A DNA stretch of 31,290 nucleotides, taken from the IMG/VR virus record IMGVR_UViG_2651869845_000001; one strand, written 5' to 3'. Positions 12,552 to 31,272 of the stretch are shown here, piece after piece. Origin of the DNA: an uncultured virus (IMG/VR IMGVR_UViG_2651869845_000001). Taxonomy: Duplodnaviria; Heunggongvirae; Uroviricota; Caudoviricetes. Both the position numbers and the translations under genes were made by a program. The notes under the pieces were generated by a model. That model did not search any database. It had not been told where the DNA came from and saw nothing but the letters and a program-made list of their open reading frames with translations. How positions within the stretch are numbered: position 1 is the stretch's first letter; every line of letters starts with the position of its first letter.

Positions 12552-12842
12552 TCAGTTGGCCGTGGTCTTGCGGGCGGCCGTCTTCTTGGCCGCCTGCTTC
12601 TTCACGGCCGGCTTGGTGTCCTCGCCAGGGTCGGCGGGGTTTCCGGGGTCGGTGGGTGCCTCGGGCTCCACCGGTGGGGTGTCGCCGCCGGGGAATACGG
12701 GCAGTTCCCCGTCCTCCCAGGCGCTGGGGTTCGTCACCAGGGCCGCGAGGTGCGGCTCAGGCAGCGTCCCGGGCGCCAGCTCCACCGTCTGGTGGGTGTC
12801 CGGGTCCGTGACGTACACGGTCCCCTTCAACTGGGCGGCCAT
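12552..12842 (-). CDS. Small post-capsid protein (96 aa, Pro/acidic linker, Lys/Ala tail)
   Basis: Starts 3 nt after MCP stop; typical small gene following actinophage major capsid. Confidence 0.75.
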   Translation of the reverse strand: MAAQLKGTVYVTDPDTHQTVELAPGTLPEPHLAALVTNPSAWEDGELPVFPGGDTPPVEPEAPTDPGNPADPGEDTKPAVKKQAAKKTAARKTTAN

Positions 12843-14652: not shown

Positions 14653-14680
14653 GCCGTTCCCCTTTCGCGAGTTTCGCGGA

Positions 14681-14752
14681 ATGTGTGAGGGCCCCTGCTG
14701 GGTGCCGTCCACGTGGGGTGAGGGCGTGGTCCCTGGTCTGCGGTGGTGCGGT
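14681..14752 (-). promoter_or_regulatory. Conserved leader element, copy 2 (upstream of decoration/major capsid genes)
   Basis: atgtgtg-ag-ggcccctgc-tg-ggtgccgtccacgtggggt ... ggtgcggt matches 8917-8975. Confidence 0.6.
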
Positions 14753-15589: not shown

Positions 15590-15615
15590 GGGGGCAGTTC
15601 CTCCCAAGGAGTGTC

Positions 15616-15641
15616 CAGGCCCCGCGCCTAGGATCAAGGTA
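15616..15641 (-). promoter_or_regulatory. Putative late promoter (motif copy upstream of scaffold)
   Basis: Minus strand TACCTT-GATCCT-AGGCGCGGGGCCTG. Confidence 0.6.
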
Positions 15642-17622: not shown

Positions 17623-20163
17623 TCAGCGGCGCCCAGCCAGCCGCTGATCCCGGTACGGAGTGGCGACCAGGCCCGCAGATGCAGAGCCGGCCAGTTCCGT
17701 GAACAGGTGCACGGCGGCGTCCAGACGGTCCGGGGAGTCCATGCCCGGGAGCCAGGAGATGTACTGGATCTCGAGTCCCGGGAACTCTCCGACGTGGTGG
17801 ACGTGTCCGTTCTCGTAGAGTTGCGCGATGGGTTCCGCACGCAGTCGTTTCCCGACCTTCGCGGTCACCTCGATGATGCGGGGCATGAGCATGCCCTTGG
17901 TGAGCCCCTCGCGTTCCAGTTCGGCCCATGCCTGGCGAATGATCTGAGCGGCCATGTCGCCGCCGAAGTTCGATTCGACCACGAACGCGTCGGCCTCGAG
18001 CTCGATGGCCAGCAGACAGGCAGTGCGACCCCATTCGGCTGCTCCCATCTTTGATGAGCGGTCGGCGAGGAGGTACATCTCGCCTGCCTCGTCCCGGCCG
18101 CCGCCGATGAGCCCGACTTCGTCGCTGTCCTCGCGGCCGCCGGCGGTATCGATGGACACGATGGTCCGGGTGAGGTCGACGCCACGGAACGCCTGGGGGG
18201 TGATGCGGTGCTGCGTAATCCAGGGCCATTTCCATACGCCGCCCTCAAGGGGGCGTGGCTGCTGCTGGTAGAGGGCCCACCAGCCGCGTTCGCCGACGTC
18301 TTTCTTGAACCGGTCCAGGTGCTTGCGGCGGAAGCGTTCAGGCCAGAGGGGCTCTCCGAGTTGGCGTCCAAGCGGATCATCGGGAGACATAGCCAGGGCA
18401 GGCAGGTCGATGACTGTCCAATCCTCGGCGCCCTGTTGGAGGATCCGTCCGGCCAGGTCGTTCTCTGACCAGCGGGTTTGGATGACGATGATGGACCCGT
18501 TGGGTTCCATACGCGTGTTCATGACCTGCTGCCACCAGTCCCACAGGTTCGCCAGCTTGACGGGGCTGTCGGCCTCTTTGGCGTCCTTCAGCGGATCGTC
18601 GACTATGGCGATGTTTGCGCCCATCCCAGTCAGCGATCCTCCGACGCCAGCGGTAACGAGACCTCCTGGGGTGCCTGCGAGGTCGAACCGGTTGGCTGCC
18701 ATCGAGCCGTAGCGCAGCTCAACGCCGATCTGCGGACCGAACTCCTTGATGCCGTCACGGATCCACCGGCCGTGGCCTTCAGCAAGCTTGGCGGCGTAGG
18801 AGGCGATCATGACCCGGTGGTCTGGGTGTTTCGCCAGGTACCAGAGCGGAGCCCACCGTGCTGCCCGAGCACTGTTGTGCGTGGGGATCAGGGCACGCCC
18901 AACGAGGTAGAGACCGCCTTCGACCTGGATGCACCGCCCAGGCTCCGGGGCGACAGGCTCGATTGCCGCGAAGCCGACGCGTCGCTTCGTCTTCAAAGCG
19001 AGCTTGGTCGCCTTGCGCGGCAGCATTCCCTGCGGGATCCCGTCGTGCGGCGTCCAGTCCGTGACCCAACAGGCACCGCCCCTCAACGGGTGACCACCCC
19101 AAATGGACCGCTTCCGCAGGTCGGGCCCCCGCCAGGAGAGGTTCGCGCGGTATCCGAGGGTCCGAGCAAGATCGCGGACATCGCTTGCGAGTTCCTCGGA
19201 GGCAGACACGAATCGGATGCGCCCGTCACGCCCAAGGGAGCCGTCAGTGTCGACCAGACCAGCCAGAAGATCGCGCCGCTGCCGCTCGGACGCAATGAGG
19301 TAGACCTGCGGGATGTGCTTCCGCTTGAGCACGCCAGCCGCCCTGAGAGGCGCCATCAGCCCCTTGATGTACTGGTAGTGAACGCCGGTATTGGGGTGGA
19401 CCCAGCGTGCCCCCAGGACGTAGGGGATGCGGTCCGCGATGTGGTTGACGTCTTCTTCCGTTCCGCAGAACGAGGCTTTGCCGGTCGCGCCGTCACCGAG
19501 CCATACCCCAAGCGTGTAGGGGTCTACGGGAAGGTCGGCGTCGGGGTTCTGTAGCGGGCCGACCTGCGGAAGCTGGAACCGGTAGCGCCCCCCGCGCCGG
19601 CCCTCCGGCCCAGAGTGCAGTTTCTGCGTCGCCAGGTATCGCGTCTCAACGGTCCTCCACGCGCCTGCGCCTCTGTCGTACACCGACCATTCATGGTTGG
19701 GATGGACCAGGACGGATTCACCGTCGCTGAACGTGACGCGCACCTTCTCGTCCGACGGGTCTGAGACCCATTCGACCATCGCGGGGCTGCCGCTCGGGGC
19801 GTACACGTAGTCGCCTACTCGAAGGTCTCCGTGCCGCTTCCATCCCCCAGTGGTCAGCACCGGCTCCGAGTCGGCGACCTGCTTGCCGTGGCGTGGTGGC
19901 ATGTTCAGCAGGACGCGCATCCGCTCTCCGTTGGCGATGCGCACGAATGCCTTGTCGATCAGGTCAAGGTGCCGGGCCTGCCACTCTCTACCGCCGGTGA
20001 GGACCGCGGCCATCGAGCCGGGGGAGCGCCCGATGGCCATCTTCCGCTCAGCCCAGGCGAGGACCTTGCGCAGTTCGTCGTCGGCGAGGCGGGCCATGGC
20101 TGTCCGCTGGGCTGGCGGCAGACGCTGGTACCTGGCTACTTCCTCTTCGAACTGGCTGGTCAC
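17623..20163 (-). CDS. terL: Terminase large subunit containing an intein (846 aa precursor, 510 aa spliced)
   Basis: Walker A MPPRHGK/S split by insert, Walker B IAIVDDP, IQTRW coupling motif, YQQQP, nuclease VESNFGG and SPDRLDA. Confidence 0.96.
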   Translation of the reverse strand: MTSQFEEEVARYQRLPPAQRTAMARLADDELRKVLAWAERKMAIGRSPGSMAAVLTGGREWQARHLDLIDKAFVRIANGERMRVLLNMPPRHGKQVADSEPVLTTGGWKRHGDLRVGDYVYAPSGSPAMVEWVSDPSDEKVRVTFSDGESVLVHPNHEWSVYDRGAGAWRTVETRYLATQKLHSGPEGRRGGRYRFQLPQVGPLQNPDADLPVDPYTLGVWLGDGATGKASFCGTEEDVNHIADRIPYVLGARWVHPNTGVHYQYIKGLMAPLRAAGVLKRKHIPQVYLIASERQRRDLLAGLVDTDGSLGRDGRIRFVSASEELASDVRDLARTLGYRANLSWRGPDLRKRSIWGGHPLRGGACWVTDWTPHDGIPQGMLPRKATKLALKTKRRVGFAAIEPVAPEPGRCIQVEGGLYLVGRALIPTHNSARAARWAPLWYLAKHPDHRVMIASYAAKLAEGHGRWIRDGIKEFGPQIGVELRYGSMAANRFDLAGTPGGLVTAGVGGSLTGMGANIAIVDDPLKDAKEADSPVKLANLWDWWQQVMNTRMEPNGSIIVIQTRWSENDLAGRILQQGAEDWTVIDLPALAMSPDDPLGRQLGEPLWPERFRRKHLDRFKKDVGERGWWALYQQQPRPLEGGVWKWPWITQHRITPQAFRGVDLTRTIVSIDTAGGREDSDEVGLIGGGRDEAGEMYLLADRSSKMGAAEWGRTACLLAIELEADAFVVESNFGGDMAAQIIRQAWAELEREGLTKGMLMPRIIEVTAKVGKRLRAEPIAQLYENGHVHHVGEFPGLEIQYISWLPGMDSPDRLDAAVHLFTELAGSASAGLVATPYRDQRLAGRR
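18874..19881 (-). mobile_element. Class 3 intein with LAGLIDADG homing endonuclease (336 aa, TerL residues 95-430)
   Basis: QVADSEPVLTTGGW...DLRVGD (blocks A/N2), HPNHEW (B), PYTLGVWLGDG and LAGLVDTDG (C/E), RCIQVE (F), IPTHN/S (G). Confidence 0.93.
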
Positions 20164-20666
20164 CCGGTGGACGCCTCTTCAGTCCCGTCCTCGTCGTCCG
20201 CTGTGGAGGTGGCACTGTTGCGCGGGTCGGCCTGGTCGAGCCGGCTGGTGGCCTCAATGAGGGAGACGAGATCTTCGGGGCTGGCACTGGACAAAGCGAG
20301 GGGCCCGCCGTCGGCTCCGGTCACCTCGGTGCGCACGGGGGCCTTCCAGCCGTTCAGCTCGCTGAGGTCGGCTACCAGTTTCCGGGCTTGCTCGTTCGCT
20401 CGTATGTCTCCGGATGTGGCGTCGGACCATACGGCGGCGAGGAGCTGTTCGTAGCGGTCGGTCTGGAACTGTCTCCAGACGTCAGCCTCAACGTTGACTG
20501 CTTTGAGGTAGGCCCGGTAGGCGCGGGTGAAGTCTTTCGACAGGGTGTTGGGTGACATGCCGAACGATTCGGCGATGTCGTTCATGTGCTCGCCGGCGGC
20601 GCGGCGGCGGAACATTTCCTTGCGGCGTGCGGCGGTGAGGGCTTGCGCGGTTCGAGATGCTGGCAT
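20160..20666 (-). CDS. Probable terminase small subunit (HTH, 168 aa)
   Basis: ATG 20666; HTH-like MNDIAESFGMSPNTLSKD, TEVTGADGGPL motif common in TerS C-termini; GTGA overlap with terL. Confidence 0.8.
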   Translation of the reverse strand: MPASRTAQALTAARRKEMFRRRAAGEHMNDIAESFGMSPNTLSKDFTRAYRAYLKAVNVEADVWRQFQTDRYEQLLAAVWSDATSGDIRANEQARKLVADLSELNGWKAPVRTEVTGADGGPLALSSASPEDLVSLIEATSRLDQADPRNSATSTADDEDGTEEASTG

Positions 20667-20704
20667 GACGGTCGGGGCTCCCGCATGGTCGTCTGTTGTT
20701 GTGT

Positions 20705-20731
20705 CAGGCCCCGCGCCTGTTCCTGATGATC
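20705..20731 (-). promoter_or_regulatory. Putative late promoter (motif copy upstream of terS)
   Basis: Minus strand GATCAT-CAGGAAC-AGGCGCGGGGCCTG; hexamer is weaker than in the other copies. Confidence 0.55.
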
Positions 20732-20768
20732 CCTGATGTGGGCGGTTGTCTTGCCCCGGGCGCGGGTT

Positions 20769-20799
20769 GGCCCCCACCAGCGGGGGGCTGGTGGGGGCC
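20769..20799. terminator. Perfect 13-bp stem hairpin downstream of the FtsK-like gene
   Basis: ggcccccaccagc-ggggg-gctggtgggggcc; near-identical to 30466-30495. Confidence 0.65.
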
Positions 20800-20989
20800 G
20801 GGTGAGCCTGTACGGCGGGGGGTGCCGTTGGGGTGGGCTCGGGTGGGGTTTGTTTGCACGGCCCGGGTTCCTCGACACACCTCGGGCGCGGGGACGCTGA
20901 AGGCATGAGTTGTCCGGGCCGTGCTCTTTCAGGGTGGCGTATGGGGGGCTGTTTGTCCGGGCTGCTATCCCCCGGTGCTGGTGGGGGGC

Positions 20990-23323
20990 CTACGCCTCGT
21001 CGTCGGTGGCCGGGGCGTCGTCCTCGGATGCGGGTCCGAGTCCGTACATGCCTCGGGTGACTTTGCCGTCCACGATCTGGCGGTGGATCTTCCGTGCCTT
21101 GGTGAGGCTGGTGAGGGAGTTGTTCAGTGTCGGCGATCCGGCCTCGAGTCGGGCCATGGCGGCGATCTGGTCTTTGTGCTGGTAGACGGGTTCGATGCCG
21201 AGCGGGTCAGCGACTTCCTGAAGGACGCGGAGGATTTTGTCGCTGGCGCTGGCCGGCTTCTTCGGTGCGGCGGCGGGGCCGGTGAAGAACATGCCGTCCC
21301 CGTCGTCTCCGTCGCCGTCCTCGTCGTCGCCGGGGAGGACGGACTGGGTGGCGAGGTTGTGGCGGTCGTCCCAGAACGGCCAGTCGGCGGGGATGCGGAT
21401 GTCGTTCTGGTCGATGTAGGGGGTGGCGTCCTCGAGGATCCAGTTGCGCATCATCTCCGCGTGGCCGCCGGGGCTGGCGGCGAAGGCGAGTCCGAAGGTC
21501 CGCTTGGGGTCGTTGAGGGGCTTGCTGGGGTCGTAGACCATGTCGCGTTCGCCGGACCAGGCGGGGGGGATGTCGGCGGGGTTGCAGCCGGCGAAGTTTT
21601 CGGGGAGGTCGATGAGGTGTTTCTGCTGGGAGTCGGAGCGCAGCATGATCAGGGATCCGCCGTAGAAGACGTTGTCGCGGATCGCTGCGTCGCCTCCGAA
21701 CTCCTTGAGCTGCATGAGCTGGTTGGCGAGGATCACGGGCATGCCGAGGGACCTGCCGAGGGTCGCGCCGGCGTTGATGATGAACGTCGCTTCCTTGCGG
21801 TACTCAGCGTTCTCACCCAGGAGCTTGCTGGCCTCATCAAGGATCAGGGGGGCCCAGGGGCGTTCGTCGCTGGCCTGGAAATTCTTCATGCTGAGCCGCG
21901 CGGATTCTTCGACCCGGAACATCAGGCCGTGGTACCAGATGCGGAGGGCGCCCATGGCGTCGTCGGGGCCCAGGCCGGAGTAGGCGGCCATCTTCTCGAT
22001 GGCGGGGTTGGAGGAGCCCTTGGGGTCGGCGTAGATGATCGCGGAGCCGTTGACGTGGTGGGCGAGGGAGATGAGCTGGAGGGTGCCGCCCTTTCCGGAG
22101 CCGGTGACGCCGGCGATGATGCAGTGCTGCGCACCGAGGGCGGGGTCGTGGAGTTGGATGCGGGCGGGAAATCCGGAGACGCCGGGTCCGAGCTGGATGT
22201 ACCCGTTGGGGTTGGGCTTGAGGACGTGGACGCCGGGGAACACGGCGCCCTTTTCGAGGGGGTTGTGGTCCATACGGCGGATGACGGCTTCGCGGGGGTT
22301 CTGGCGGGGCTCGTAGGAGACGAGGAGCGGGTTGTCGACGCGGAGCGCACCGGCGAGGTCCATGCGGTCGGGGTGGGTGAGCCGGTCGCTGTTCTCGCCG
22401 GCGACGACGAGGGCGACTTGGCCGCCGGTGTTGGGGTCGTCCTGGATGTTCTCGAGGCGGGTGCCGTCCATGAGTCCGCCTTTGCGTGCGGCCCACTTCT
22501 GCCAGGCCCCGGCGAGGGTGGTGGGGTCGAGTTCGGGGGGCGGGGTGAGGTTGACGGTGATGTGGCGTTCCCCGGCGTGGGCGCCGGCCGTGAAGGTGAT
22601 CCAGTTGATGGGGACGCGGTAGACGGAGGACACCGTGTCGGGGGTGACGGTGACGGATGTTCCGATGGGGGCGGTGATGGTGCCGGTCCAGCGTGCGGTG
22701 CCGAGGGTGCGGAGGGTGAGGATCTGCCCGCGGTGCGCGCCGCCTTCGGGGTCGGAGATGTGACGGCCCCACAGTGCGGCGATCTGGTCTGCCGGGGTCA
22801 GGGGCTGGCTGGGCGTGTTGCTGGGGGCCTTCGCCTGGGTGGGGGTTGTCTTGGCGGGTGCGCGGCGGAGGACGTTGCGGAGCTTCCACGGGGTGAGGGC
22901 GACGGCGGCCCACCAGCCGAGGGAGACGATGCCGGGGATGGACGGGAGGGCGAGGAAGCCGGCCATGAGGGCGTCGGCACCGTCGGGGCCCATGGTGATG
23001 CCTATGCCGAGGGACATGCCGGCGGCGACGGTGGAGAGGAGCATCGGTGAGCGGTGGGCCTGGATGATGTCGCCGGCCGGCAGGTTGTCCATGAGCCCGT
23101 TCGGGAGGCGGTCCATGTAGTTGGCGAACATGAGGCTGGCGCCGGCGGCGTAGGCCACACCTGTGGTGAGTTCGGCGCCGCCATCGAGGAACGGGGCGAC
23201 GAGACCGGTGATGACGGGCGCGGCAGAGGTGGCGAGGGCGATGGTCCGTTCGGTGCCGGCCGCGCCGGGTGTGGTGTTGGTCGGGGGCTGGGTGGTGGTC
23301 TGGGGGACGGTGTCCTGGCTCAT
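20990..23323 (-). CDS. traB: TraB-like FtsK/SpoIIIE-family ATPase (777 aa)
   Basis: N-terminal hydrophobic segments, Walker A IAGVTGSGKG, ADPKG, Walker B LILDEA, GRSLGMPVILANQ, C-terminal winged-helix-like segment; ATG 23323 with GGAG RBS. Confidence 0.82.
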   Translation of the reverse strand: MSQDTVPQTTTQPPTNTTPGAAGTERTIALATSAAPVITGLVAPFLDGGAELTTGVAYAAGASLMFANYMDRLPNGLMDNLPAGDIIQAHRSPMLLSTVAAGMSLGIGITMGPDGADALMAGFLALPSIPGIVSLGWWAAVALTPWKLRNVLRRAPAKTTPTQAKAPSNTPSQPLTPADQIAALWGRHISDPEGGAHRGQILTLRTLGTARWTGTITAPIGTSVTVTPDTVSSVYRVPINWITFTAGAHAGERHITVNLTPPPELDPTTLAGAWQKWAARKGGLMDGTRLENIQDDPNTGGQVALVVAGENSDRLTHPDRMDLAGALRVDNPLLVSYEPRQNPREAVIRRMDHNPLEKGAVFPGVHVLKPNPNGYIQLGPGVSGFPARIQLHDPALGAQHCIIAGVTGSGKGGTLQLISLAHHVNGSAIIYADPKGSSNPAIEKMAAYSGLGPDDAMGALRIWYHGLMFRVEESARLSMKNFQASDERPWAPLILDEASKLLGENAEYRKEATFIINAGATLGRSLGMPVILANQLMQLKEFGGDAAIRDNVFYGGSLIMLRSDSQQKHLIDLPENFAGCNPADIPPAWSGERDMVYDPSKPLNDPKRTFGLAFAASPGGHAEMMRNWILEDATPYIDQNDIRIPADWPFWDDRHNLATQSVLPGDDEDGDGDDGDGMFFTGPAAAPKKPASASDKILRVLQEVADPLGIEPVYQHKDQIAAMARLEAGSPTLNNSLTSLTKARKIHRQIVDGKVTRGMYGLGPASEDDAPATDDEA

Positions 23324-23374
23324 GGTGGGCTCCAAACGGGGTTGGCGGACGCGGACAGGCAGGCGGTGCGAGGG

Positions 23375-23755
23375 CTATTCCTGGGCGAACCAGGTGCGGT
23401 TAACGGCGCTCAGGTCGACCGGGGATCGGTTGAACGCCTCGGCGATGCCCTGGTGGGAGTCGCGGTTCTGGTCGTGGGCGGCCTGGGCGGCGCGGGCAGT
23501 GGTGTCGGCGGTGGATACGTAGGCGGTGGCGGAGGCGCTGAGGCCGTCCATGAGGCGGGCGAGGCCCCGGGTTTCGGCGACGGTGTCCGGGTCGATGCCC
23601 ATGCCAGCGATGCCCTCCGCGGTACGGGCGGTGTCGACGGCGGCATCGCTGATGACCAGAGACTCGCCCTTGATGGCTTCGGATCCGCGGGAGACCCGCT
23701 TCGCAAAACCGGTGACCGCGCTGTTGAGCTGCCGGTAGGTGATCTTGTCGGGCAT
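23375..23755 (-). CDS. Small helical-hairpin protein next to TraB-like gene (126 aa)
   Basis: Ala-rich amphipathic helices around a GIDPDT turn; 1-nt overlap with upstream stop. Confidence 0.8.
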   Translation of the reverse strand: MPDKITYRQLNSAVTGFAKRVSRGSEAIKGESLVISDAAVDTARTAEGIAGMGIDPDTVAETRGLARLMDGLSASATAYVSTADTTARAAQAAHDQNRDSHQGIAEAFNRSPVDLSAVNRTWFAQE

Positions 23756-25794: not shown

Positions 25795-25818
25795 TTCATC
25801 AACTCCTCACTGTGGGTT

Positions 25819-25918
25819 ACTACTCCCTACCGGCTTCCCGGCCGAAGAACCCGAATCGGTGATCCCTTACGTGTGACGGATCATGGGTTCTTCGGTCGGG
25901 AGGTAGGTAGGAAGTAGT
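25819..25918. repeat. ~100-nt imperfect inverted repeat (34-bp arms)
   Basis: 25819-25852 vs reverse complement of 25885-25918 match at 29/34; inner tgatcc/ggatca stem. Confidence 0.9.
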
Positions 25919-26526
25919 CAGGACTGATTACTGCGGGTGCCCTTCTTGGCGGCCACGACGACGAACAAGCCGAGCGCCGCACCACCGAGGAGGAGGCCCT
26001 TGTTGACCCCTCCGCCGCCGGTGCTGGCGTCGTTCGCGGCGGCCGCGGTCTGCACGTCGCTGGTGTTCGTGCTGGTGGAGTACTGGGCCTGGCAGTCATC
26101 GACGATGTCCCGGTGCGCCGGCGAACCGAGGGTCTTCCCGGAAAGGTGTGCGTTGGTCTTGACGCATTTGTCGACGGACGCCTGCCGGGCGTGTTCCTGA
26201 GTTACTACCGCCTTACGGTCTGCTTCCTCCTGCCGATTCAACTCACGGACTTTCTGTAGGTCGAGGGCCTTGGCCTGGAGGGCGATCTCCTGCTGCTTCG
26301 CTTCACTCTCCGCAACATTCCCGGCGTGAATCTGGTAGCCGATCAGTCCGGTACCGGCGATAACCACTGAACCGACGGCGATAACGGCCTTCCCGCGTTT
26401 CGTAAGACCGGGCTTCGTGGGGTGCGCGGGTGCACCGTAGGGGCCGGTCTGCGGGATGGTCTGCACGGGGATTTCTGTGCCCATTCCGGCAACGATCCGG
26501 TCGAATTCTTCGTTGGGGTCGGTCAT
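25918..26526 (-). CDS. Membrane protein with two TM segments and coiled coil (202 aa)
   Basis: KRGKAVIAVGSVVIAGTGLIGY and LLLGGAALGLFVVVAAKK hydrophobic stretches; Cys pair between. Confidence 0.8.
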   Translation of the reverse strand: MTDPNEEFDRIVAGMGTEIPVQTIPQTGPYGAPAHPTKPGLTKRGKAVIAVGSVVIAGTGLIGYQIHAGNVAESEAKQQEIALQAKALDLQKVRELNRQEEADRKAVVTQEHARQASVDKCVKTNAHLSGKTLGSPAHRDIVDDCQAQYSTSTNTSDVQTAAAANDASTGGGGVNKGLLLGGAALGLFVVVAAKKGTRSNQS

Positions 26527-26527
26527 T

Positions 26528-27061
26528 TCACTCTCCGTTCCTTCGGGCTTTTACTGCGGACTCTTTGATGAGGGTTTCGACGGCAGAAAACTGCTGGTCA
26601 GGGAGGTCGTTCCAGGCGAAGAACTGCATGCGGATTCCGGCGTCGGCGAGGACTTCCTGCATGTAGTCGACGGCCTTGTCGCGGGCGTGGGGGGTGACGT
26701 GCCCGGTTTTCTGGAGGAGGTTCTGGGCGCCGCGGACGCAGAGCCGGCCGGTGACGGTGACGTCCAGGGACTGGCACCACCCGTACCGGTGGAGGACGGC
26801 GAGGACTTGCAGGAGGTGTGTGGAGGGGGGTTGGGGGGTGGGGTCCTGCCACATGCCCAGGTCGGCGAGGAGCCCGCGTACGGGGGCGGGGAGGAACCGG
26901 TGCCCCCATGACGGGGTGTCGGGTGCTGCCGCGTAGGCGGGGAGGGTGGCGAGGGCTTCGTCGACCAGCTGCTGAGTGGTCTTCGTACGCAGGGGCGTAC
27001 CCGCGACCGGCCCCGCCTGGGGGGCGGGGGCCGGCGCGGAGCGGGTGATCAGGTGCGGCAC
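26528..27061 (-). CDS. Hypothetical protein, DUF6197-like (177 aa)
   Basis: GTG 27061 with GGAAGG RBS; LHRYGWCQ..GRLCVRGA..AWND pattern. Confidence 0.7.
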   Translation of the reverse strand: MPHLITRSAPAPAPQAGPVAGTPLRTKTTQQLVDEALATLPAYAAAPDTPSWGHRFLPAPVRGLLADLGMWQDPTPQPPSTHLLQVLAVLHRYGWCQSLDVTVTGRLCVRGAQNLLQKTGHVTPHARDKAVDYMQEVLADAGIRMQFFAWNDLPDQQFSAVETLIKESAVKARRNGE

Positions 27062-27095
27062 GTGCGTTCCTTCCTGGCGGGGTGGGTGAGGCGGT

Positions 27096-28097
27096 TTAGA
27101 GGTAGCCGCCGTCGGTGGCGGCGCGCTGGCGGTTGATGCGGGACAGGACGGTGCGGACGTAGTTGGCGTCCGCATCAACGCCGTGATGCGCGAGGCGCTT
27201 CACGATCTGCGGCGCCGATGCGGCGGGGTCCGCATCACGCATCGCGCGGACTGCGGCGGCCTTGCTCATGCCGGCGAGGTGGAGCGCTTCACTGTCGCCG
27301 TGGGGCGCCGCATCACCGGCTGCCGTGGTCCGCGTCAGGGGCGCATCACGGTTCTCATCAGCGGCTTCACTGAGCGCAGCAGTACGGTGCGCGGCCGCGG
27401 TGAGCATGGTCTGCTGCGTCTGCTTGGCGCTGAACGCGGCGGGCGCATCACTGACGAGGCGGGACTGCTGCGCATCGGTGATGCGGGGCGTATCAGTGTC
27501 CGTGTCACCGGTGACGTCGATGGTGCGGCGGCGCATCAGTTCGCGGGTCTTGTCCTGCCGCATCAGTTCGATGTCGAAGTCGACGGACACTTCGGCCATG
27601 TGGCGTTCGGCGCCCATCTCGCGGCGGCGCATCTCGATGCCGTGCTGGGCTTCCTCGAAGGCCATGCCGCGTTCCATGCGGGCGAGGGCGTGGTTCTCTT
27701 CGTCGGTGAGGGCGGCGGGGTTGCGCATGTCGGCGAGGGCGAGGACCCAGACGGCTTTGGCACCGAAGGGGAGGAAGGGGCCGGCGGCGGCCATGGCGAG
27801 GCTGTTCTTCTCGATGCCGTGCATGGCGAGGAAGCCGGCGACGATGAGGAGGGTGATCCAGCCGAAGGCGGGGACGACCCAGGGTTTTTCGGTGACGCGG
27901 AGGCCGCGGGCTTCGGCGATGATGACGGATCCCCAGATGATGTCGGCGCCGGCGGCGACGGTGGCGCCGATGAGGCCGGTTCCGAGGAGGTCGACGAGGC
28001 TCCAGGTGGTCCAGGCGAGGGAGGCCAGGGAGAGGAGCGCGGCCGGGTAGAGGAGCGGTGAGAGGCGCCGCTGGGGGGTGGTGGGGTTGGTCTTCAT
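27096..28097 (-). CDS. SpdB-like spread protein: ~4 TM helices, coiled coil, C-terminal HTH-like domain (333 aa)
   Basis: Hydrophobic N-terminal 120 aa (LAWTTWSLVDLL..), charged helix, C-terminal SKAAAVR..SAPQIVKRLAHHGVDADANYVRTVLSR. Confidence 0.75.
   Translation of the reverse strand: MKTNPTTPQRRLSPLLYPAALLSLASLAWTTWSLVDLLGTGLIGATVAAGADIIWGSVIIAEARGLRVTEKPWVVPAFGWITLLIVAGFLAMHGIEKNSLAMAAAGPFLPFGAKAVWVLALADMRNPAALTDEENHALARMERGMAFEEAQHGIEMRRREMGAERHMAEVSVDFDIELMRQDKTRELMRRRTIDVTGDTDTDTPRITDAQQSRLVSDAPAAFSAKQTQQTMLTAAAHRTAALSEAADENRDAPLTRTTAAGDAAPHGDSEALHLAGMSKAAAVRAMRDADPAASAPQIVKRLAHHGVDADANYVRTVLSRINRQRAATDGGYL
27134..27565. repeat. CGCATCA/TGATGCG repeat array inside SpdB-like gene
   Basis: Exact cgcatca at 27171, 27231, 27309, 27342, 27444, 27532, 27559; tgatgcg at 27134, 27184, 27479; further one-mismatch copies. 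Confidence 0.9.
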
Positions 28098-28145
28098 GGC
28101 GGTCGGTTCCTTCCTGGTCGGTGGTGAGCGGGGGCTGGTGGGTGG

Positions 28146-28706
28146 TTAGGCGGCTTGGGTGAGGTGGAGGTTGAGCCAGGTCTCGTAGACGCCGGCGACC
28201 CAGTGCTCGTCGGGTTTGGTGCCGTGGGCGTCTTCGAAGGAGGCCAGGCCCTGCTCGGTGGTCCAGGCCCAGTGGCCGATGGCGTCCTGTCGGCGTCGCG
28301 CGTCGGCCAGGATCTTGTTGTGGTCGAAGGCCAGGTTGTTGCCGGGGTTGGCGATCGGGTTCCACTGGACGGAAGTGGCGTCGTCTCCGGCGCGGGCTGT
28401 GGTGCCGGCGGGGACGGTGACGGTGTAGGCGACGGTGACGTACCGTCCGCGGGGGTCGCGGTTGGGGTCGTCGTAGACGCCGATGAGGGTGAGGTCGTCT
28501 TCGGTGACGTGGATGCCGGTCTCTTCGAGGAGTTCGCGTACGGCGGCCTGCTTGGCGGTTTCGCCGGGGTCGACGTGGCCGCCGGGGAGGGCGAGGTGGC
28601 CTTTGTAGGGGGGCCAGCCGCGGTTGATGAGGAGGACGTTGCCGTCGGGGGTGGTGGCTACGACGTCGGCGGTGTAGCGGATGGTCTCGAGGTCTTCGGT
28701 TGCCAT
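28146..28706 (-). CDS. Nudix hydrolase (186 aa)
   Basis: Nudix box GGHVDPGETAKQAAVRELLEETGI, RDPRG, AGDDA, LAFDH; ATG 28706 with AAAGGA RBS. Confidence 0.93.
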   Translation of the reverse strand: MATEDLETIRYTADVVATTPDGNVLLINRGWPPYKGHLALPGGHVDPGETAKQAAVRELLEETGIHVTEDDLTLIGVYDDPNRDPRGRYVTVAYTVTVPAGTTARAGDDATSVQWNPIANPGNNLAFDHNKILADARRRQDAIGHWAWTTEQGLASFEDAHGTKPDEHWVAGVYETWLNLHLTQAA

Positions 28707-28776
28707 GGGTGGTCCTTTCTGCGGGTTGGGGGTGGGGGCCGGTCTGTCGGCTCGACCGGCCCCCAGGGGTGGGTGG

Positions 28777-29175
28777 TTAGGGGGTGTCGATGTGGGCGAT
28801 GGCGTCGGCGATGGTCTGGCGGGGTGCGAACTGTTCGGTGAGGTGGGCGTGCTGCTCGCCCAGGTGCTGGATGTCCTTCTGTCGATCAAGGGGGAGGTTG
28901 CGGAGGGTGGGGTTGGTGTCGGGGTTGGTGAGTCGGGTGATGAGGAGGGTGAGGGCGGTGAGGATGTCCGTGCCCTCCGCCCCGGCGAGGCTGTAGAGGA
29001 CGGTCTGGGTCTGCGCCTTGGTGAGGCGTTCCATGGCGAGGGACTCAAGACCGTGGCGGATCTGGTCGATGCCGTAGTGCACGCCGTCCAGGTCGGCGAG
29101 GACGCCGGCGAGGTCGTCGTCGACGGCCGGGATTGCGTTGCCGGGTGTGTGGAGGGGGCCCAGGTAGTCGCCCAT
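28777..29175 (-). CDS. Hypothetical protein (132 aa)
   Basis: Coding-like codon bias; 1-nt overlap with upstream stop. Confidence 0.75.
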   Translation of the reverse strand: MGDYLGPLHTPGNAIPAVDDDLAGVLADLDGVHYGIDQIRHGLESLAMERLTKAQTQTVLYSLAGAEGTDILTALTLLITRLTNPDTNPTLRNLPLDRQKDIQHLGEQHAHLTEQFAPRQTIADAIAHIDTP

Positions 29176-29522
29176 CAGAGTTCCCCGTCCTGTTCGGCCT
29201 GCGGGTCGGCGACCTGCCCGAACATGTCGTCCATGGCCCGGATCGCGTTCATCTGCTGACCAGCCGGCACGTCACGCAGGACCGTGTGGGTGAGGTCGAT
29301 CAGGTCCAGGGCGTCGTACAGGTCTTCGATGTCGGCGACCAGGAGGTTGTGCAGGTGCTGGTCGATGAGCCCGGTGGTGAGGTCGCGGAAGTGGAGGGTG
29401 GTGTCGAGGACGTTGGTTCCGACCTGGGAGGGGTCGGCGGTGACCGGGGTGAGGGCGTCCTCGACAGCGGCGGTCAGCTGCGGGTCTGCCTCAAAGGGCA
29501 TGTCGGCGGCGTTCATGGTCAC
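29175..29522 (-). CDS. Hypothetical acidic protein (115 aa)
   Basis: Coding-like codon bias; coupled to both neighbours. Confidence 0.75.
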   Translation of the reverse strand: MTMNAADMPFEADPQLTAAVEDALTPVTADPSQVGTNVLDTTLHFRDLTTGLIDQHLHNLLVADIEDLYDALDLIDLTHTVLRDVPAGQQMNAIRAMDDMFGQVADPQAEQDGEL

Positions 29523-29641
29523 CAGCCCCTGATGTTCAGGGCGCGGCGCCGGGCTGCGGGCTCCGTGGGCAGCGGGCGCGCCGGGGGCTGCTCGGTGGCC
29601 GGCTTGTCCTTCGGGGCCGGCGCCGGGTCGGTGGCGATCAT
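29519..29641 (-). CDS. Small 40-aa ORF (MIATDPAPAPKDKPATEQPPARPLPTEPAARRRALNIRGW)
   Basis: Not in track; ATGA overlap upstream and GTGA overlap downstream, fills the gap exactly. Confidence 0.65.
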   Translation of the reverse strand: MIATDPAPAPKDKPATEQPPARPLPTEPAARRRALNIRGW

Positions 29642-30033
29642 GCGGCCACCGCCCGGGTGGAGCGAATGTTGATCGTGGCGAACCGGCCGACGCGCGTCAC
29701 GGTCCCAGTAAGCGTGACTCGTGATCCTGCGTGAAGAACCCTGCTCAAGTTCGGCAGCGTGTTCCGGTCGACGGTGAAGATGGCCGTGCCGGTGTTGTTC
29801 TCGACAACCCCTCGGGCGCCACCGTCGGCGGAGGGCGAGAAGGACTGCACGTACACCGTGGCTTGCACGGTGGCATCGGTCTGCGCGTGTCGCAGAACCT
29901 GGGACTTCTGTCCGGCAGGTCCTGTGATCTGGACCCTGAGTCCGCCGGGGCCTTCCAAGGGCCGGCGCGGCCGGAAGACCGGGCGTGCGGTGTCGGTGGC
30001 CAGCGTGTTGTGCTGGATGGCATGCTGATCCAT
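29638..30033 (-). CDS. Hypothetical protein, possible OB-fold (131 aa)
   Basis: ATG 30033 with AGGAGG RBS; beta-rich GVVENNTG..IFTV..LHAGSRVTLTGTV pattern. Confidence 0.7.
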   Translation of the reverse strand: MDQHAIQHNTLATDTARPVFRPRRPLEGPGGLRVQITGPAGQKSQVLRHAQTDATVQATVYVQSFSPSADGGARGVVENNTGTAIFTVDRNTLPNLSRVLHAGSRVTLTGTVTRVGRFATINIRSTRAVAA

Positions 30034-30127
30034 GCGGATCGGCCTCCTGTTACGGCAGGTAGGGCTTTTCTGTTGGAAGGCCTCGGGCACTGGCGGTGCA
30101 ACGCTGGTGTTCCGGGGCCTGACTTCT

Positions 30128-30340
30128 TCAGGCGACAGCGGACTCGCTCAGGAAGCTGTCGACGGCCGACTTCGGAATGCGGAGCCCGCGGGCTCGCAGC
30201 TGTCCGGTGCCGAAGCGGTGCGCGTTGATGCGCTTCTCCCTGACCAGTCGACGAACGGTCTGCGGGTGAAGCTTCAGAATCGCCCCGACCTGCACGGCGT
30301 CCAGCAGATCGTTGGTCTCATCCGCGTTCTGCTTGTCCAC
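30128..30340 (-). CDS. Excisionase-like HTH DNA-binding protein (70 aa)
   Basis: LLDAVQVGAILKLHPQTVRRLVREKRINAHRFG..LRIPKSAVDSFL (HTH_17/MerR-like); GTG 30340 with AAGGAG RBS. Confidence 0.88.
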   Translation of the reverse strand: MDKQNADETNDLLDAVQVGAILKLHPQTVRRLVREKRINAHRFGTGQLRARGLRIPKSAVDSFLSESAVA

Positions 30341-30375
30341 GGGCTTCTCCTTCCTGGTCGACATCAAGGGTTGCA

Positions 30376-30430
30376 ACTTCCCTAGGGGAGTCACTTGCTT
30401 CATTGAAGACCAGTTCCCTATGGGAGTCAA
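30376..30430 (-). promoter_or_regulatory. Promoter with two imperfect palindromic operators
   Basis: acttccctaggggagtca (30376-30393) and agttccctatgggagtca (30412-30429); minus strand TTGACT-17 nt-TTCAAT. Confidence 0.75.
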
Positions 30431-30454
30431 GCGCTCCGAGCGAACACGGCCCGA

Positions 30455-30495
30455 GAAAACAAAAAAGCCCCCACCAGCGGGGGCTGATGGGGGCT
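30455..30495 (-). terminator. Rho-independent terminator after GntR gene
   Basis: Minus strand AGCCCCCATCAGC-CCCC-GCTGGTGGGGGCT followed by TTTTTGTTTTC. Confidence 0.85.
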
Positions 30496-30507
30496 CAGGA
30501 GTGCGGG

Positions 30508-31272
30508 TCAGTCCGTGAAGTCGTACTCCATGACGAACCGAGAGGCGTCCAAGGTCATGTCGTTGACCTCCACGATCCGGCCCTCCGCGTCGGCGGCCGT
30601 ACGGACGATGTGCATGATGGGCGTGCCGGCGCCCATGCTCAGGCGCTCCGCTCCCTCGGGCTGCGGCATCCTCGCCCGCAGCTCCTCACGGAACCGCTTG
30701 GGCTCGTGCCCAAGGTCGGCAAGGCGGGCATAGATACCCCCGGGGCCGGTGTCGACCTGCATGATGGGCGAACCAGCGACTACGTCCATGGGCAGGTAGG
30801 ACACGGCGGACATCACGGGGACGCCTTCGACCATGTAGATGCGGGAGCGTCGGCAGACCTTGAGGCCCGCGGGCAGGTCCATCGTTCGGGCGATGCCATC
30901 AGGCGGGTCGACTTCTTCGGGTTGTTCGTTGGCCGGGATCATGTCGCGGTCGTGTACGTCTACGGACCACATCGACTGGCCGGCGCCCCATAGTTCCTTG
31001 GATAGGCGCTTGGTGGCGTTCCGGCGGATGGGTTGGAACGACCGGACGAAGAATCCCCTGCCGTGCTGGCTCTCGAGGAGCCCTTGGTCGCGAAGGGAGA
31101 CCAGGGCGTTCCTGGCGGTCATCTTGGACACGCCGTACTGCGCGACGAGCTGTGTTTCGCTGGGGGCTTTGTCGCCGGGGGCGAGGGATCCGTCGTGGAT
31201 CAGGGCGCGCAGGTCCGCCGCGATCCGCTGGAAGTGCGGTTGCGTTCGGCTCTGTGGCTTCTGGTCCGACAA
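30508..31272 (-). CDS. GntR-family (HutC/UTRA) repressor, KorSA/TraR-like
   Basis: wHTH PSETQLVAQYGVSKMTARNAL..GRGFFV plus UTRA-type C-terminus; TTG start with AAGGAG RBS. Confidence 0.93.
   Translation of the reverse strand: MSDQKPQSRTQPHFQRIAADLRALIHDGSLAPGDKAPSETQLVAQYGVSKMTARNALVSLRDQGLLESQHGRGFFVRSFQPIRRNATKRLSKELWGAGQSMWSVDVHDRDMIPANEQPEEVDPPDGIARTMDLPAGLKVCRRSRIYMVEGVPVMSAVSYLPMDVVAGSPIMQVDTGPGGIYARLADLGHEPKRFREELRARMPQPEGAERLSMGAGTPIMHIVRTAADAEGRIVEVNDMTLDASRFVMEYDFTD

What the first reader, a model, noticed from the sequence alone, without database searches (positions are those of the whole stretch)
17623..31272. Conjugation/spread module fused directly to a complete siphovirus virion module: candidate conjugative prophage
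Seen: a GntR-UTRA, Xis-like HTH, Nudix, SpdB-like and FtsK/SpoIIIE cluster ends only ~320 bp before terS, on the same strand, with no integrase, att-like tRNA or host gene between. Known: these gene classes match KorSA/TraR, Pif, Spd and TraSA/TraB of pSAM2-type AICEs and Streptomyces plasmids; a few Streptomyces plasmid-phages (e.g. pZL12) combine transfer and virion genes, so the concept is not wholly new. Inference: one element with two dispersal modes, TraB-driven hypha-to-hypha transfer and virions.
Basis: partly seen in the sequence, partly recalled or inferred. Interest (0 to 1): 0.85.

Follow-up and report, generated by a model that had tools for sequence, protein, structure and literature searches.

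The report
Streptomyces plasmid-phage with TraB transfer genes
This stretch belongs to a roughly 90-kb Streptomyces element that is both a tailed phage and a plasmid and also carries plasmid-type mating genes; this kind has been known since pZL12, so it is a new member rather than a new kind.

Summary
All genes lie on the minus strand. The order is GntR-UTRA, excisionase-like HTH, Nudix, an SpdB-like membrane protein, a TraB/FtsK-like translocase, a 323-bp spacer, then terS, TerL, portal, capsid and siphovirus tail genes.

This is not a recent fusion. All 21 virion genes are collinear with the plasmid-phage pZL12 (32-81% aa). In 18 of 18 Streptomyces plasmids listed in both my TraB and TerL searches, the two genes lie on one strand 1.2-2.8 kb apart. 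The window's own TraB sits on a 93,290-bp contig, and 33 of 34 TerL-family plasmids are 85-94 kb.

The slot between the GntR gene and terS holds different FtsK-type transfer modules in different members (window type, pZL12 type, pCQ4 traA/traB). This points to long-term retention of transfer genes with module swapping.

A model of the TraB-like protein matches the FtsK motor and TcpA. It also has predicted N-terminal membrane helices and a C-terminal winged helix.

No integrase, tRNA or att-like repeat lies in the window. It is probably an extrachromosomal plasmid-prophage, not an integrated prophage or an AICE insertion.

Neither transfer nor virion production was tested. pSAM1, a relative, gave almost no particle DNA. 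Verdict: new member of a known, under-appreciated kind.

The parts
1..816 (-). minor tail protein; its C-terminal end runs off the window
   Evidence: phrog_1885, E 2.8e-38; 67% aa to pZL12
660..1595 (-). minor tail protein
   Evidence: phrog_25212, E 1.2e-75
1608..2510 (-). distal tail protein (Dit)
   Evidence: Pfam SPP1_Dit 9e-8; phrog_33 and phrog_5577
2503..7293 (-). tape measure protein (1596 aa), assigned by size, position and homology
   Evidence: No family hit. 49% aa to pZL12.51c in the collinear position
7311..8266 (-). two genes in the tail-assembly-chaperone position (7311-7682 and 7679-8266)
   Evidence: phrog_19456 and phrog_19248. The role is inferred from position
8378..8878 (-). 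tail tube protein
   Evidence: Pfam Phage_TTP_16, E 5e-41
8993..10810 (-). head-tail connector genes, including an HK97-gp10-like gene (9439-9915) and DUF6093 (9822-10271)
   Evidence: collinear with pZL12
10641..11237 (-). Rv2179c-like 3'-5' exonuclease / RNase H-like gene inside the virion module
   Evidence: Pfam 3.2e-13; phrog_2259 1.8e-49. Among the loci compared, shared only with pZL12
11234..12842 (-). three conserved virion-module genes of unknown role
   Evidence: phrog_37388 for 11234-12070; collinear homologs in pZL12, L001 and L007
12846..13907 (-). major capsid protein
   Evidence: Pfam Phage_cap_E 2e-18; phrog_29 6e-47. Best phage hit is phage ZL12, 50% over 98% of the protein
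13918..14751 (-). head decoration-like protein
   Evidence: phrog_3583, E 8e-31
14756..15619 (-). scaffolding protein (start codon approximate)
   Evidence: phrog_2303, E 2.6e-13; reading frame from third-position GC
15655..17541 (-). portal protein
   Evidence: phrog_64, E 2.9e-11; 63% aa to pZL12.66c
17623..20163 (-). large terminase (846 aa) interrupted by an intein
   Evidence: phrog_38 1e-97; Terminase_6N; LAGLIDADG_3; alignment A2
18874..19881 (-). 336-aa intein with a LAGLIDADG endonuclease, in the TerL P-loop (between GK and S)
   Evidence: Absent from the 510-aa TerL of CP108738.1, pSAM1 and pZL12; present in NZ_CP109524.1. It ends in HN followed by S
20160..20666 (-). small terminase-like protein (168 aa)
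   Evidence: Lies directly upstream of TerL and overlaps it. Weak N-terminal HTH hits; phrog_645
20667..20989 (.). 323-bp spacer between traB and terS, with a perfect 13-bp hairpin at 20769-20799
   Evidence: Any role as terminator, late promoter or cos/pac site is inferred
20990..23335 (-). TraB-like FtsK-family dsDNA translocase (777-781 aa)
   Evidence: Walker A at 409-417 and Walker B at 497-502 are invariant in 28 homologs. The model matches the FtsK motor and TcpA. Homologs are named T4SS conjugative DNA transfer protein or FtsK
23375..23755 (-). 126-aa protein directly upstream of traB, conserved alongside it
   Evidence: Collinear in 6 of the 8 loci compared; no family hit
23755..25794 (-). 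679-aa low-complexity, Gly/Ser/Lys/Pro-rich protein with a helical C-terminus, conserved alongside traB
   Evidence: no family hit
25819..25918 (.). inverted repeat with 34-nt arms (85% complementary) upstream of the 679-aa gene
   Evidence: repeat I1; function unknown
25918..26526 (-). 202-aa protein with two predicted membrane segments
   Evidence: collinear in relatives
26528..27064 (-). DUF6197 protein (start approximate)
   Evidence: Pfam, E 2.7e-15
27096..28097 (-). SpdB-like membrane protein with a C-terminal HTH
   Evidence: Hydropathy. ESM-Atlas nearest clusters carry SpdB_N/HTH_SpdB_C, score 0.96. No hit in the local Pfam copy
27133..27565 (.). array of 10 copies of TGATGCG/CGCATCA, in both orientations
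   Evidence: 21 copies in the window against 5.1 expected; 0 of 100 shuffles reach 21. The array forces rare GAT codons: 8 of 18 here against 46 of 593 elsewhere, p 5e-5. It is conserved in the homologous gene of L006, pSAM1 and pCQ4
28146..28706 (-). Nudix hydrolase (pif-like by family)
   Evidence: Pfam NUDIX 1.8e-21. Related genes occur on many Streptomyces plasmids
28777..30090 (-). three small ORFs (28777-29175, 29175-29522, 29638-30090)
   Evidence: The first two have homologs in pZL12 and relatives; the third has none
30128..30430 (-). HTH_17 / excisionase-family DNA-binding protein
   Evidence: Pfam 1.6e-8; TIGR01764 4.5e-7. No homolog in the 8 loci compared
30465..30496 (-). terminator-like hairpin with a T-run, downstream of the GntR gene
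   Evidence: Its stem resembles the hairpin at 20769-20799
30508..31272 (-). GntR-family regulator with a UTRA domain (Kor-like by family)
   Evidence: Pfam GntR 1e-19; UTRA 1e-23. Only 27-29% aa to the GntR genes of pSAM1, pZL12 and pCQ4, which are divergently oriented

Best explanation
The window is about one third of a roughly 93-kb Streptomyces plasmid-phage (phage-plasmid) of the pZL12 / pSAM1 / pSLE1 / pCQ4 family.

Shown:
- A siphovirus packaging, head and tail module homologous throughout to that of pZL12.
- Immediately upstream on the same strand, a plasmid-type transfer module. It comprises a membrane-anchored FtsK-fold translocase (TraB-like) with a C-terminal winged helix, two co-conserved upstream genes, small membrane proteins, an SpdB-like protein, a Nudix gene and a GntR regulator.
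- The family keeps a transfer slot between the regulator and terS, filled by different FtsK-type modules in different members.

Inferred mechanism:
- In the carrier state the element replicates as a plasmid.
- The GntR protein holds the tra genes in check, as Kor proteins do.
- TraB hexamers pump the double-stranded element into neighbouring hyphae.
- SpdB-like and small membrane proteins spread it through the recipient mycelium.
- The Nudix protein limits redundant transfer, as Pif does.
- On induction, terS and TerL package the whole ~90-kb genome, tra genes included, into siphovirus particles.
- The 323-bp spacer with its hairpin separates the two transcription units and may hold the late promoter or the packaging site.
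For: Virion module: 21 of 21 virion genes have collinear homologs in phage ZL12 at 32-81% aa. ZL12 is the MCP's best phage hit.

Same gene order in relatives: pZL12, pSAM1, CP108738.1, NZ_CP109524.1 and pCQ4.

Adjacency: of 34 TerL-family plasmid records (33 of them 84.8-94.1 kb), 18 also appear in the top 60 of 173 TraB hits. In all 18, TraB and TerL lie on one strand 1.2-2.8 kb apart.

Size: the window's own TraB (P0001) is on a 93,290-bp contig, and 46 of the 120 best homologs are on contigs of 83-99 kb.

TraB: Walker A and B motifs are invariant in 28 homologs of 55-81% identity. The model (pLDDT 68) matches the FtsK motor 2ius (E 7e-8), TcpA 6o1w (E 1.4e-7) and EccC. It shows N-terminal helices at 25-156 and a helix-helix-helix-strand-strand winged helix at 697-766.

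One element, not two: no integrase, att repeat or Rfam-supported tRNA lies between the modules.

Against: - Nothing in this window shows replication, partition, circularity, lysis genes or an integrase. Two thirds of the contig is unseen and no genome is held.
- The window's TraB and 679-aa protein are not detectably similar to pZL12.71c/72c (hhalign probability 3%). The experimental precedent therefore concerns a different tra module.
- pSAM1, which carries the window-type TraB (52% aa), gave <0.01% of reads in purified particles. [quoted passage not shown]
- TraB has no Pfam FtsK_SpoIIIE hit at sequence level.
- No clt was identified. The one repeat array found tracks the SpdB-like gene, not the TraB type.
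- In one relative (CP075614.1) TraB is split into 4 tblastn pieces.
- Five plasmids of 91-93 kb with the window-type TraB have no window-type TerL in the listing.
- 14 of the 34 TerL-family records were not examined for tra genes.
Confidence: 0.75

Rival explanations
1. A conjugative plasmid carrying a defective or domesticated prophage. Only TraB-driven transfer still works, and the virion genes are a remnant or serve some other use.
For: pSAM1 gave <0.01% of virion reads in S. ambofaciens, and its phage was called defective and/or not induced (PMC11302927). The lysis genes and tail end are outside the window. TerL carries an intein that must splice for the enzyme to work.
Against: All 21 virion genes in the window are open and collinear with those of pZL12. 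pZL12 is deposited as a phage genome, and its paper's title reports a lytic cycle. The narrow size range of the family, 33 of 34 records at 85-94 kb, fits a capsid size limit. The same intein sits in an otherwise conserved TerL in NZ_CP109524.1.
Confidence: 0.13
2. The TraB-like module does not mediate transfer between strains. It serves the phage-plasmid itself, for example by moving copies between hyphal compartments or into spores, or by excluding rivals.
For: PHROG files the nearest phage family as a moron-type FtsK/SpoIIIE-like protein. No clt was identified. MOB-suite types 29 of the 32 matching plasmids as non-mobilizable.
Against: Homologs at 41-54% identity sit on large plasmids of 62-494 kb without this virion module, and one family member's TraB is 77-93% identical to such plasmid genes. 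Typical companions of plasmid transfer are present: an SpdB-like protein, Nudix and GntR. pZL12 and the pSVH1 TraB mechanism are cited as conjugative (PMC3583192). MOB-suite looks for relaxases, which this mechanism lacks (my knowledge).
Confidence: 0.08
3. Two separate elements lie side by side: an AICE or small plasmid recently inserted next to, or into, a prophage.
For: The excisionase-like HTH, GntR and Nudix genes recall pSAM2-type AICEs (recalled). The right-hand 2 kb (HTH_17, the 150-aa ORF and the co-directional GntR) has no counterpart in the 8 loci compared.
Against: The order is conserved in 18 of 18 co-listed plasmids and in pZL12, pCQ4 and NZ_CP109524.1. There is no integrase, no Rfam-supported tRNA and no bracketing direct repeat. 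G+C is even across the window.
Confidence: 0.02
4. The element is an integrated chromosomal conjugative prophage.
For: pSLE1 has two putative integrases (PMC4487206). Earlier notes of this scan describe integrated relatives in other genomes (unchecked). An excisionase-like gene is present.
Against: The source contig is 93,290 bp, which is the family's plasmid size. No chromosomal genes appear in 31 kb.
Confidence: 0.05

Closest known systems
Streptomyces plasmid-phage pZL12 / phage ZL12 (GQ919031.1, 90,435 bp; Zhong et al. 2010, J Bacteriol 192:3747; seen only as a title in reference lists, paper not held)
   Same: The whole virion module is collinear, 21 of 21 genes at 32-81% aa. The order is the same: GntR, small ORFs with Nudix, a large FtsK-like ATPase plus a large partner protein, terS, TerL. 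The size class matches.
   Different: Its tra proteins 71c and 72c are not detectably similar to the window's TraB and 679-aa protein. Its GntR gene is divergent, and two extra genes lie between tra and terS. Its TerL has no intein.
pSAM1 of S. ambofaciens ATCC 23877 (NZ_CP012383.1, 89,658 bp)
   Same: It has the window-type tra core: TraB 52%, the 126-aa protein 52%, the 679-aa protein 38%, and the SpdB-like protein 58% with a TGATGCG array. TerL is 62% identical, and the spacer before terS is 374 bp.
   Different: No Nudix or HTH_17 homolog in the stretch compared, and its GntR gene is divergent. Virions were not detected in one study.
pCQ4 of Streptomyces sp. W75 (NC_019307.1, 84,833 bp) and pSLE1 (NZ_LN831788.1, 86,370 bp)
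   Same: Same family layout. pCQ4 keeps the SpdB-like gene with 9 TGATGCG copies. In pSLE1, TraB is 48% and TerL 62% identical, and the two are adjacent.
   Different: pCQ4 carries annotated traA/traB of a different type with no BLASTP similarity, and four genes lie between traB and terS.
TraB of Streptomyces conjugative plasmids (pSVH1 type), as described in a passage of PMC3583192; structural details are recalled
   Same: FtsK-like motor fold, membrane anchor and C-terminal winged helix. Homologs are common on large Streptomyces plasmids.
   Different: No Pfam FtsK_SpoIIIE hit, no TRS/clt identified, and it is encoded inside a phage genome.
Classical phage-plasmids (P1, N15, etc.), as reviewed in PMC12282955
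   Same: A temperate tailed phage kept as a plasmid, with a narrow size range for the family.
   Different: [quoted passage not shown] This family carries transfer genes of the relaxase-free Streptomyces type.

Membership tests
pZL12-family Streptomyces plasmid-phage | Virion module homologous to and collinear with that of pZL12 | tested here: met
   21 of 21 genes, 32-81% aa, same order; MCP best phage hit is ZL12
pZL12-family Streptomyces plasmid-phage | FtsK-type transfer module between the GntR regulator and terS, on the virion strand | tested here: met
   Window; same slot in pZL12, pSAM1, pCQ4 and NZ_CP109524.1. The proteins filling the slot differ between members
pZL12-family Streptomyces plasmid-phage | Replicon of about 85-94 kb | tested here: inconclusive
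   Source contig is 93,290 bp, and 33 of 34 TerL-family plasmids are 84.8-94.1 kb. Circularity and completeness of the contig are unknown
pZL12-family Streptomyces plasmid-phage | Plasmid replication and partition genes (rep, parAB) | not testable with these tools
   They would lie outside the 31-kb window. No genome is held, and exact-match scans found no source contig
pZL12-family Streptomyces plasmid-phage | Forms infectious particles and transfers by mating | not testable with these tools
   Experimental. The only indirect data concern relatives
Streptomyces TraB (FtsK-like dsDNA conjugative translocase) | FtsK/HerA-type motor domain with Walker A and B | tested here: met
   Foldseek 2ius E 7e-8, TcpA 6o1w E 1.4e-7. 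GVTGSGKGG and LILDEA are invariant. Sequence-only searches are weak
Streptomyces TraB (FtsK-like dsDNA conjugative translocase) | N-terminal membrane anchor | tested here: met
   Hydrophobic segments at 32-50 and 122-140; helices at 25-156 in the model. Prediction only
Streptomyces TraB (FtsK-like dsDNA conjugative translocase) | C-terminal winged-helix DNA-recognition domain | tested here: met
   Helix-helix-helix-strand-strand at 697-766, pLDDT 76-86. 7 of the 28 aligned homologs carry an extra FtsK_gamma tail
Streptomyces TraB (FtsK-like dsDNA conjugative translocase) | Cognate clt with short repeated recognition words | tested here: inconclusive
   A TGATGCG array exists, but it recurs in pCQ4, which has an unrelated TraB. 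It tracks the SpdB-like gene
pSAM2-type AICE | Integrase, att sites at a tRNA, and a RepSA-type replication gene | tested here: not met
   None in 31 kb. Only an excisionase-family HTH is present. The rest of the contig is unseen
SpdB spread protein (Pfam SpdB_N / HTH_SpdB_C) | Match to the family models; membrane N-domain plus C-terminal HTH | tested here: inconclusive
   The architecture fits, and ESM-Atlas neighbours carry both domains (0.96, 223 of 256 features). The local Pfam copy gave no hit at E<=1

The most novel reading that the evidence does not exclude
A large, old family of ~90-kb Streptomyces phage-plasmids (dozens of members) keeps a dedicated transfer slot beside its packaging genes. 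Over time the family refills this slot with unrelated FtsK-type conjugation modules taken from ordinary plasmids. These phages would then routinely spread both as virions and as naked dsDNA between hyphae. That contradicts the current review statement that no phage-plasmid is conjugative. The TGATGCG array inside the SpdB-like gene would be the conserved cis site that hands the genome to whichever pump is present.
Probability: 0.4. Interest if true: 0.65.

Novelty: new member of a known kind. Interest (0 to 1): 0.4.

Why it matters
Phage particles and conjugation are usually treated as mutually exclusive routes for one element. A 2025 review states that no phage-plasmid is known to be conjugative (PMC12282955), and MOB-suite types these plasmids as non-mobilizable.

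The pZL12 family shows otherwise. It appears common: 34 TerL-family plasmids in PLSDB, and 46 of the 120 best TraB homologs on contigs of 83-99 kb. This window adds a member with the shortest tra-terS spacer among those I compared. Comparison with relatives also shows that the transfer slot has been refilled several times.

That makes a long-standing question testable in a tractable, harmless host: when does each transfer route pay off?

For this single window the result is confirmatory rather than surprising. Earlier notes of this scan already describe several such elements.

Tried and rejected
- **Whole genome:** none is held.
- **Source contig:** exact 61-base scans of viral contigs and metagenome contigs found nothing, so the window could not be extended.
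- **Sequencing runs:** no RNA holder is listed. Only two DNA holders kept as contigs were found, both possible sources.
- **pZL12 paper (PMC2897331):** not held.
- **TGATGCG array as the TraB clt:** not supported. The same word array sits in the SpdB-like gene of pCQ4, whose TraB is unrelated.
- **Repeat clusters at the same position in other loci:** the GCCGAAGC cluster in L005 is a coding repeat, since all spacings are multiples of 3. L004 has a different word, SGGCTCA, 19 copies; this was not followed up.
- **ARAGORN tRNA-Glu:** rejected. It is 89 nt, antisense inside traB, and has no Rfam hit.
- **Local Pfam:** no SpdB or DUF2637 hit for any tra-module ORF even at E<=1.
- **TraB against PDB by sequence or profile:** only weak P-loop hits, E 0.05-0.4.
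- **Cross-comparisons of tra proteins:** pZL12.71c/72c against the window proteins gave no similarity. The 126-aa protein against pCQ4 TraA gave none.
- **att-like direct repeats:** none convincing. One search covered only repeats within 400 bp.
- **Context of the nearest GntR DNA match:** a linear 134-kb plasmid, uninformative.
- **Phage collection:** megablast and TraB tblastn found no match.
- **Genome-contig scan:** 3 loci. None has window-type virion genes within 10 kb downstream of TraB (L005 has only a 54-aa TerL fragment). Only L004 was examined further: it has a different TerL family 8 kb downstream.

Full report
**1. What is in the window**

The window is about 68% G+C with no compositional break. 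Third-position GC shows that every real gene is on the minus strand.

Reading in the direction of transcription, from 31,272 down to 1, the genes are:
- a GntR+UTRA regulator, 30508-31272 (Pfam E 1e-19 and 1e-23), followed by a terminator-like hairpin with a T-run;
- an HTH_17 / excisionase-family protein, 30128-30430;
- three small ORFs;
- a Nudix hydrolase, whose real gene is probably 28146-28706;
- a 333-aa protein with N-terminal membrane helices and a C-terminal HTH, 27096-28097;
- a DUF6197 protein;
- a 202-aa protein with two membrane segments;
- a 679-aa low-complexity protein;
- a 126-aa protein;
- a 777-781-aa P-loop ATPase, 20990-23335;
- a 323-bp spacer;
- terS (20160-20666), TerL, portal, scaffold, decoration protein, major capsid protein, connectors, tail tube, two chaperone-position genes, a 1596-aa tape measure, Dit and minor tail proteins.

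The last tail gene runs off the left end of the window.

**2. The ATPase is TraB-like**

Sequence searches alone are weak: HerA_C at 0.0016, PHROG FtsK/SpoIIIE-like at 1.2e-6, and PDB sequence or profile hits at E 0.05-0.4.

Stronger evidence comes from homologs and structure:
- 391 homologs were found. The named ones among the best 120 are called 'type IV secretory system conjugative DNA transfer family protein', 'DNA translocase FtsK', 'helicase HerA-like domain-containing protein' or 'hypothetical protein'.
- In an alignment of 28 homologs (55-81% identity), the Walker A motif GVTGSGKGG and the Walker B motif LILDEA are invariant.
- An AlphaFold model built on that alignment has mean pLDDT 68 and is low in several loops. 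It shows a helical N-terminal region (25-156), a central α/β domain and a C-terminal helix-helix-helix-strand-strand unit at 697-766.
- Foldseek ranks the E. coli FtsK motor first (2ius, E 7e-8). The pCW3 conjugation coupling protein TcpA, P. aeruginosa FtsK and EccC/EssC follow.
- ESM-Atlas neighbours include actinomycete FtsK_SpoIIIE+HTH clusters (a lead only).

The architecture is therefore that of Streptomyces TraB. That protein is described as a DNA translocase resembling FtsK/SpoIIIE that moves unprocessed double-stranded DNA (passage of PMC3583192).

**3.

Its nearest named Atlas clusters carry SpdB_N and HTH_SpdB_C (score 0.96). The local Pfam copy gave no hit, so this remains a lead.

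**4. The layout is a family trait, not a new fusion**

*Plasmid matches.* Megablast of 17,000-31,290 found no phage record. It did match 32 Streptomyces plasmids, and 18 of the 20 listed are 85-94 kb. Among them are pSAM1 of S. ambofaciens and pSLE1 of S. leeuwenhoekii.

*Link to pZL12.* The capsid protein's best phage hit is Streptomyces phage ZL12 (pZL12, 90,435 bp), at 50% identity over 98% of the protein. A local tblastn shows that 21 of 21 virion genes of the window have collinear homologs in pZL12 at 32-81%. The pZL12 record has the same order: tail, capsid, portal (66c), TerL (67c), terS (68c), two genes, an FtsK/SpoIIIE-like 725-aa protein (71c), a 766-aa protein (72c), a membrane protein (73c), small ORFs, and GntR (80).

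*Adjacency count.* tblastn of the post-intein part of TerL found 34 Streptomyces or Kitasatospora plasmids at 54% identity or more, 33 of them 84.8-94.1 kb. tblastn of TraB found 173 plasmid records. Eighteen records appear in both top-60 lists. In all 18, the two genes are on one strand, 1.2-2.8 kb apart (2.1 kb in the window, which includes the intein).

*The remaining 16 TerL-family records.* I examined two:
- NZ_CP109524.1 has a TraB 42% identical to the window's, 2.5 kb upstream of terS.
- pCQ4 has annotated traA/traB in the same slot.
The other 14 were not examined.

*Size of the source contig.* The window's own TraB is on record on a 93,290-bp contig. Of the 120 best homologs, 46 sit on contigs of 83-99 kb, 13 on longer ones and 61 on fragments under 60 kb.

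**5. The transfer slot has been refilled**

- The window's TraB and 679-aa protein show no BLASTP similarity to pZL12.71c/72c. hhalign aligns only the Walker A to Walker B stretch, at 3% probability.
- pCQ4's TraB and TraA are likewise unrelated at BLASTP level.
- The TraB of NZ_CP109524.1 is 77-93% identical to genes on plasmids of 72-494 kb.
- The window-type TraB has 41-54% relatives on 37 of the 60 listed plasmids, and these lie outside the 85-94 kb class.
- Conversely, five plasmids of 91-93 kb with window-type TraB have no window-type TerL in the listing. In genome contig L004 (93 kb), a TerL of another PHROG family lies 8 kb downstream of a 71%-identical TraB.

So tra modules and virion modules recombine. 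The association of an FtsK-type pump with a ~90-kb tailed-phage genome persists through this exchange. The spacer between tra and terS holds 0-4 small genes in the relatives examined (374 bp in pSAM1, up to 2.9 kb in pCQ4). None is annotated as an integrase.

**6. Tests of the rival 'AICE inserted in a prophage'**

No integrase family was found in any ORF. The ARAGORN tRNA-Glu is antisense inside traB, 89 nt long and without Rfam support. No direct repeats bracket the tra genes within the window.

The right-hand 2 kb is the one non-syntenic part. The GntR gene is co-directional here but divergent in pZL12, pSAM1, pCQ4 and NZ_CP109524.1, and it is only 27-29% identical to the GntR genes of pZL12, pSAM1 and pCQ4; no similarity to that of NZ_CP109524.1 was found. 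HTH_17 and the 150-aa ORF have no homolog in the 8 loci compared. What lies beyond 31,290 is unknown.

**7. A repeat array I could not explain**

TGATGCG/CGCATCA occurs 21 times in the window against 5.1 expected, and 0 of 100 shuffles reach 21. Ten copies, in both orientations and in different reading frames, lie in 27133-27565. This is the part of the SpdB-like gene that encodes the linker before the HTH.

The array forces rare codons. GAT makes up 8 of 18 Asp codons there, against 46 of 593 in the other genes (p 5e-5).

The array recurs in the homologous gene of L006 (8 copies), pSAM1 (6) and pCQ4 (9). Because pCQ4 has an unrelated TraB, the array tracks the SpdB-like gene rather than the pump. 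I therefore do not call it the TraB clt. It could be the binding site of the SpdB-like HTH, or a cis site shared by the family.

**8. How it most likely works**

Shown: gene content, fold, conservation and size class.

Inferred from the named families and from relatives:
- The element is maintained as a plasmid. pSLE1 has ParA/ParB.
- GntR represses the tra genes.
- TraB pumps dsDNA between hyphae.
- The SpdB-like and small membrane proteins spread the DNA within the recipient.
- Nudix acts like Pif (recalled from the pSAM2 literature).
- On induction the whole element is packaged.

The narrow size range fits the capsid limit that the review describes for phage-plasmids.

Against a working phage in every member: particles from S. 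ambofaciens contained <0.01% pSAM1 reads (PMC11302927).

**9. What is known**

[quoted passage not shown] - It is listed as the only extrachromosomal temperate actinophage outside cluster A (PMC7157519).
- ΦNon1 of Nonomuraea is called reminiscent of it (PMC5431353).
- pSLE1 was annotated from it.
- My searches for 'phage-plasmid'/'Streptomyces'/'TraB' and for 'phage-plasmids'/'Streptomyces'/'conjugation' found no paper describing this family as conjugative. The library lacks most subscription journals, and I saw no supplements.
- Earlier notes of this scan report similar elements in other genomes. They agree with this reading but are not independent evidence.

**10. Verdict**

It needs correcting on three points. 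The element is probably extrachromosomal rather than an integrated prophage. It does not derive from an AICE. And the junction is an old family layout, not a new fusion.

It is a new member of a known but under-appreciated kind. Interest 0.4.

Noticed in passing
window 18874-19881 (-), inside TerL 17623-20163: A 336-aa intein with a LAGLIDADG endonuclease splits the TerL P-loop between GK and S. It begins with Gln rather than Cys/Ser and ends in HN followed by S. It has Trp, Cys and Thr at positions that, from memory, mark class 3 inteins. The same intein is in NZ_CP109524.1 (84% aa), but it is absent from CP108738.1, pSAM1 and pZL12.
   Followed up: partly
relatives listed (H123, H125, H129, H131, H141) and pCQ4 (L008 13954-16464): In several family members the TerL match is split in two pieces, with an annotated HNH endonuclease under the match, or the TerL is about 836 aa. 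TerL in this family seems to be a repeated target of homing elements.
   Followed up: no
window 27133-27565: An array of 10 TGATGCG/CGCATCA words lies inside the SpdB-like gene. It is kept in pSAM1, pCQ4 and L006 whatever the TraB type, and it forces rare GAT codons. Its function is unknown.
   Followed up: yes
L004 5774-6444: At the equivalent position upstream of DUF6197 in a S. kaempferi contig, a non-homologous gene carries 19 copies of SGGCTCA in both orientations. All 8 GGGCTCA and 11 of 13 CGGCTCA in the locus are in this stretch.
   Followed up: partly
window 20769-20799 and 30466-30495: Two hairpins share nearly the same stem (CCCCCACCAGC / GCTGGTGGGGG). One lies after traB and one after the GntR gene; the latter has a T-run. 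This may be a reused terminator.
   Followed up: no
window 25819-25918: An inverted repeat with 34-nt arms (85% complementary, 32 nt apart) fills the gap between the 202-aa gene and the 679-aa gene. It may be an operator or a structured RNA.
   Followed up: no
window 10641-11237 (-): An Rv2179c-like 3'-5' exonuclease / RNase H-like gene sits among the head-tail connector genes. Among the loci compared it is shared with pZL12 only.
   Followed up: no
window 22361-22449 (+): ARAGORN calls an 89-nt tRNA-Glu(CTC) antisense inside traB. Rfam finds no tRNA there, so this is probably a false positive.
   Followed up: yes
PLSDB typing of the matching plasmids: MOB-suite types 29 of 32 and 116 of 173 matching plasmids as non-mobilizable. 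Relaxase-based typing misses TraB-type transfer. This may explain why reviews state that no phage-plasmid is conjugative.
   Followed up: partly
L002 (pSAM1) about 13883: Six of the 7 copies of GGGTCGGA in the locus cluster inside the ORF at 13407-14936, next to the GntR gene and a DnaB-like gene. These are possibly replication iterons.
   Followed up: no
CP075614.1 77744-79992: In this 89.6-kb family member the TraB match is broken into 4 tblastn pieces under three annotated hypothetical proteins. This may be decay of the transfer gene or an assembly error.
   Followed up: no
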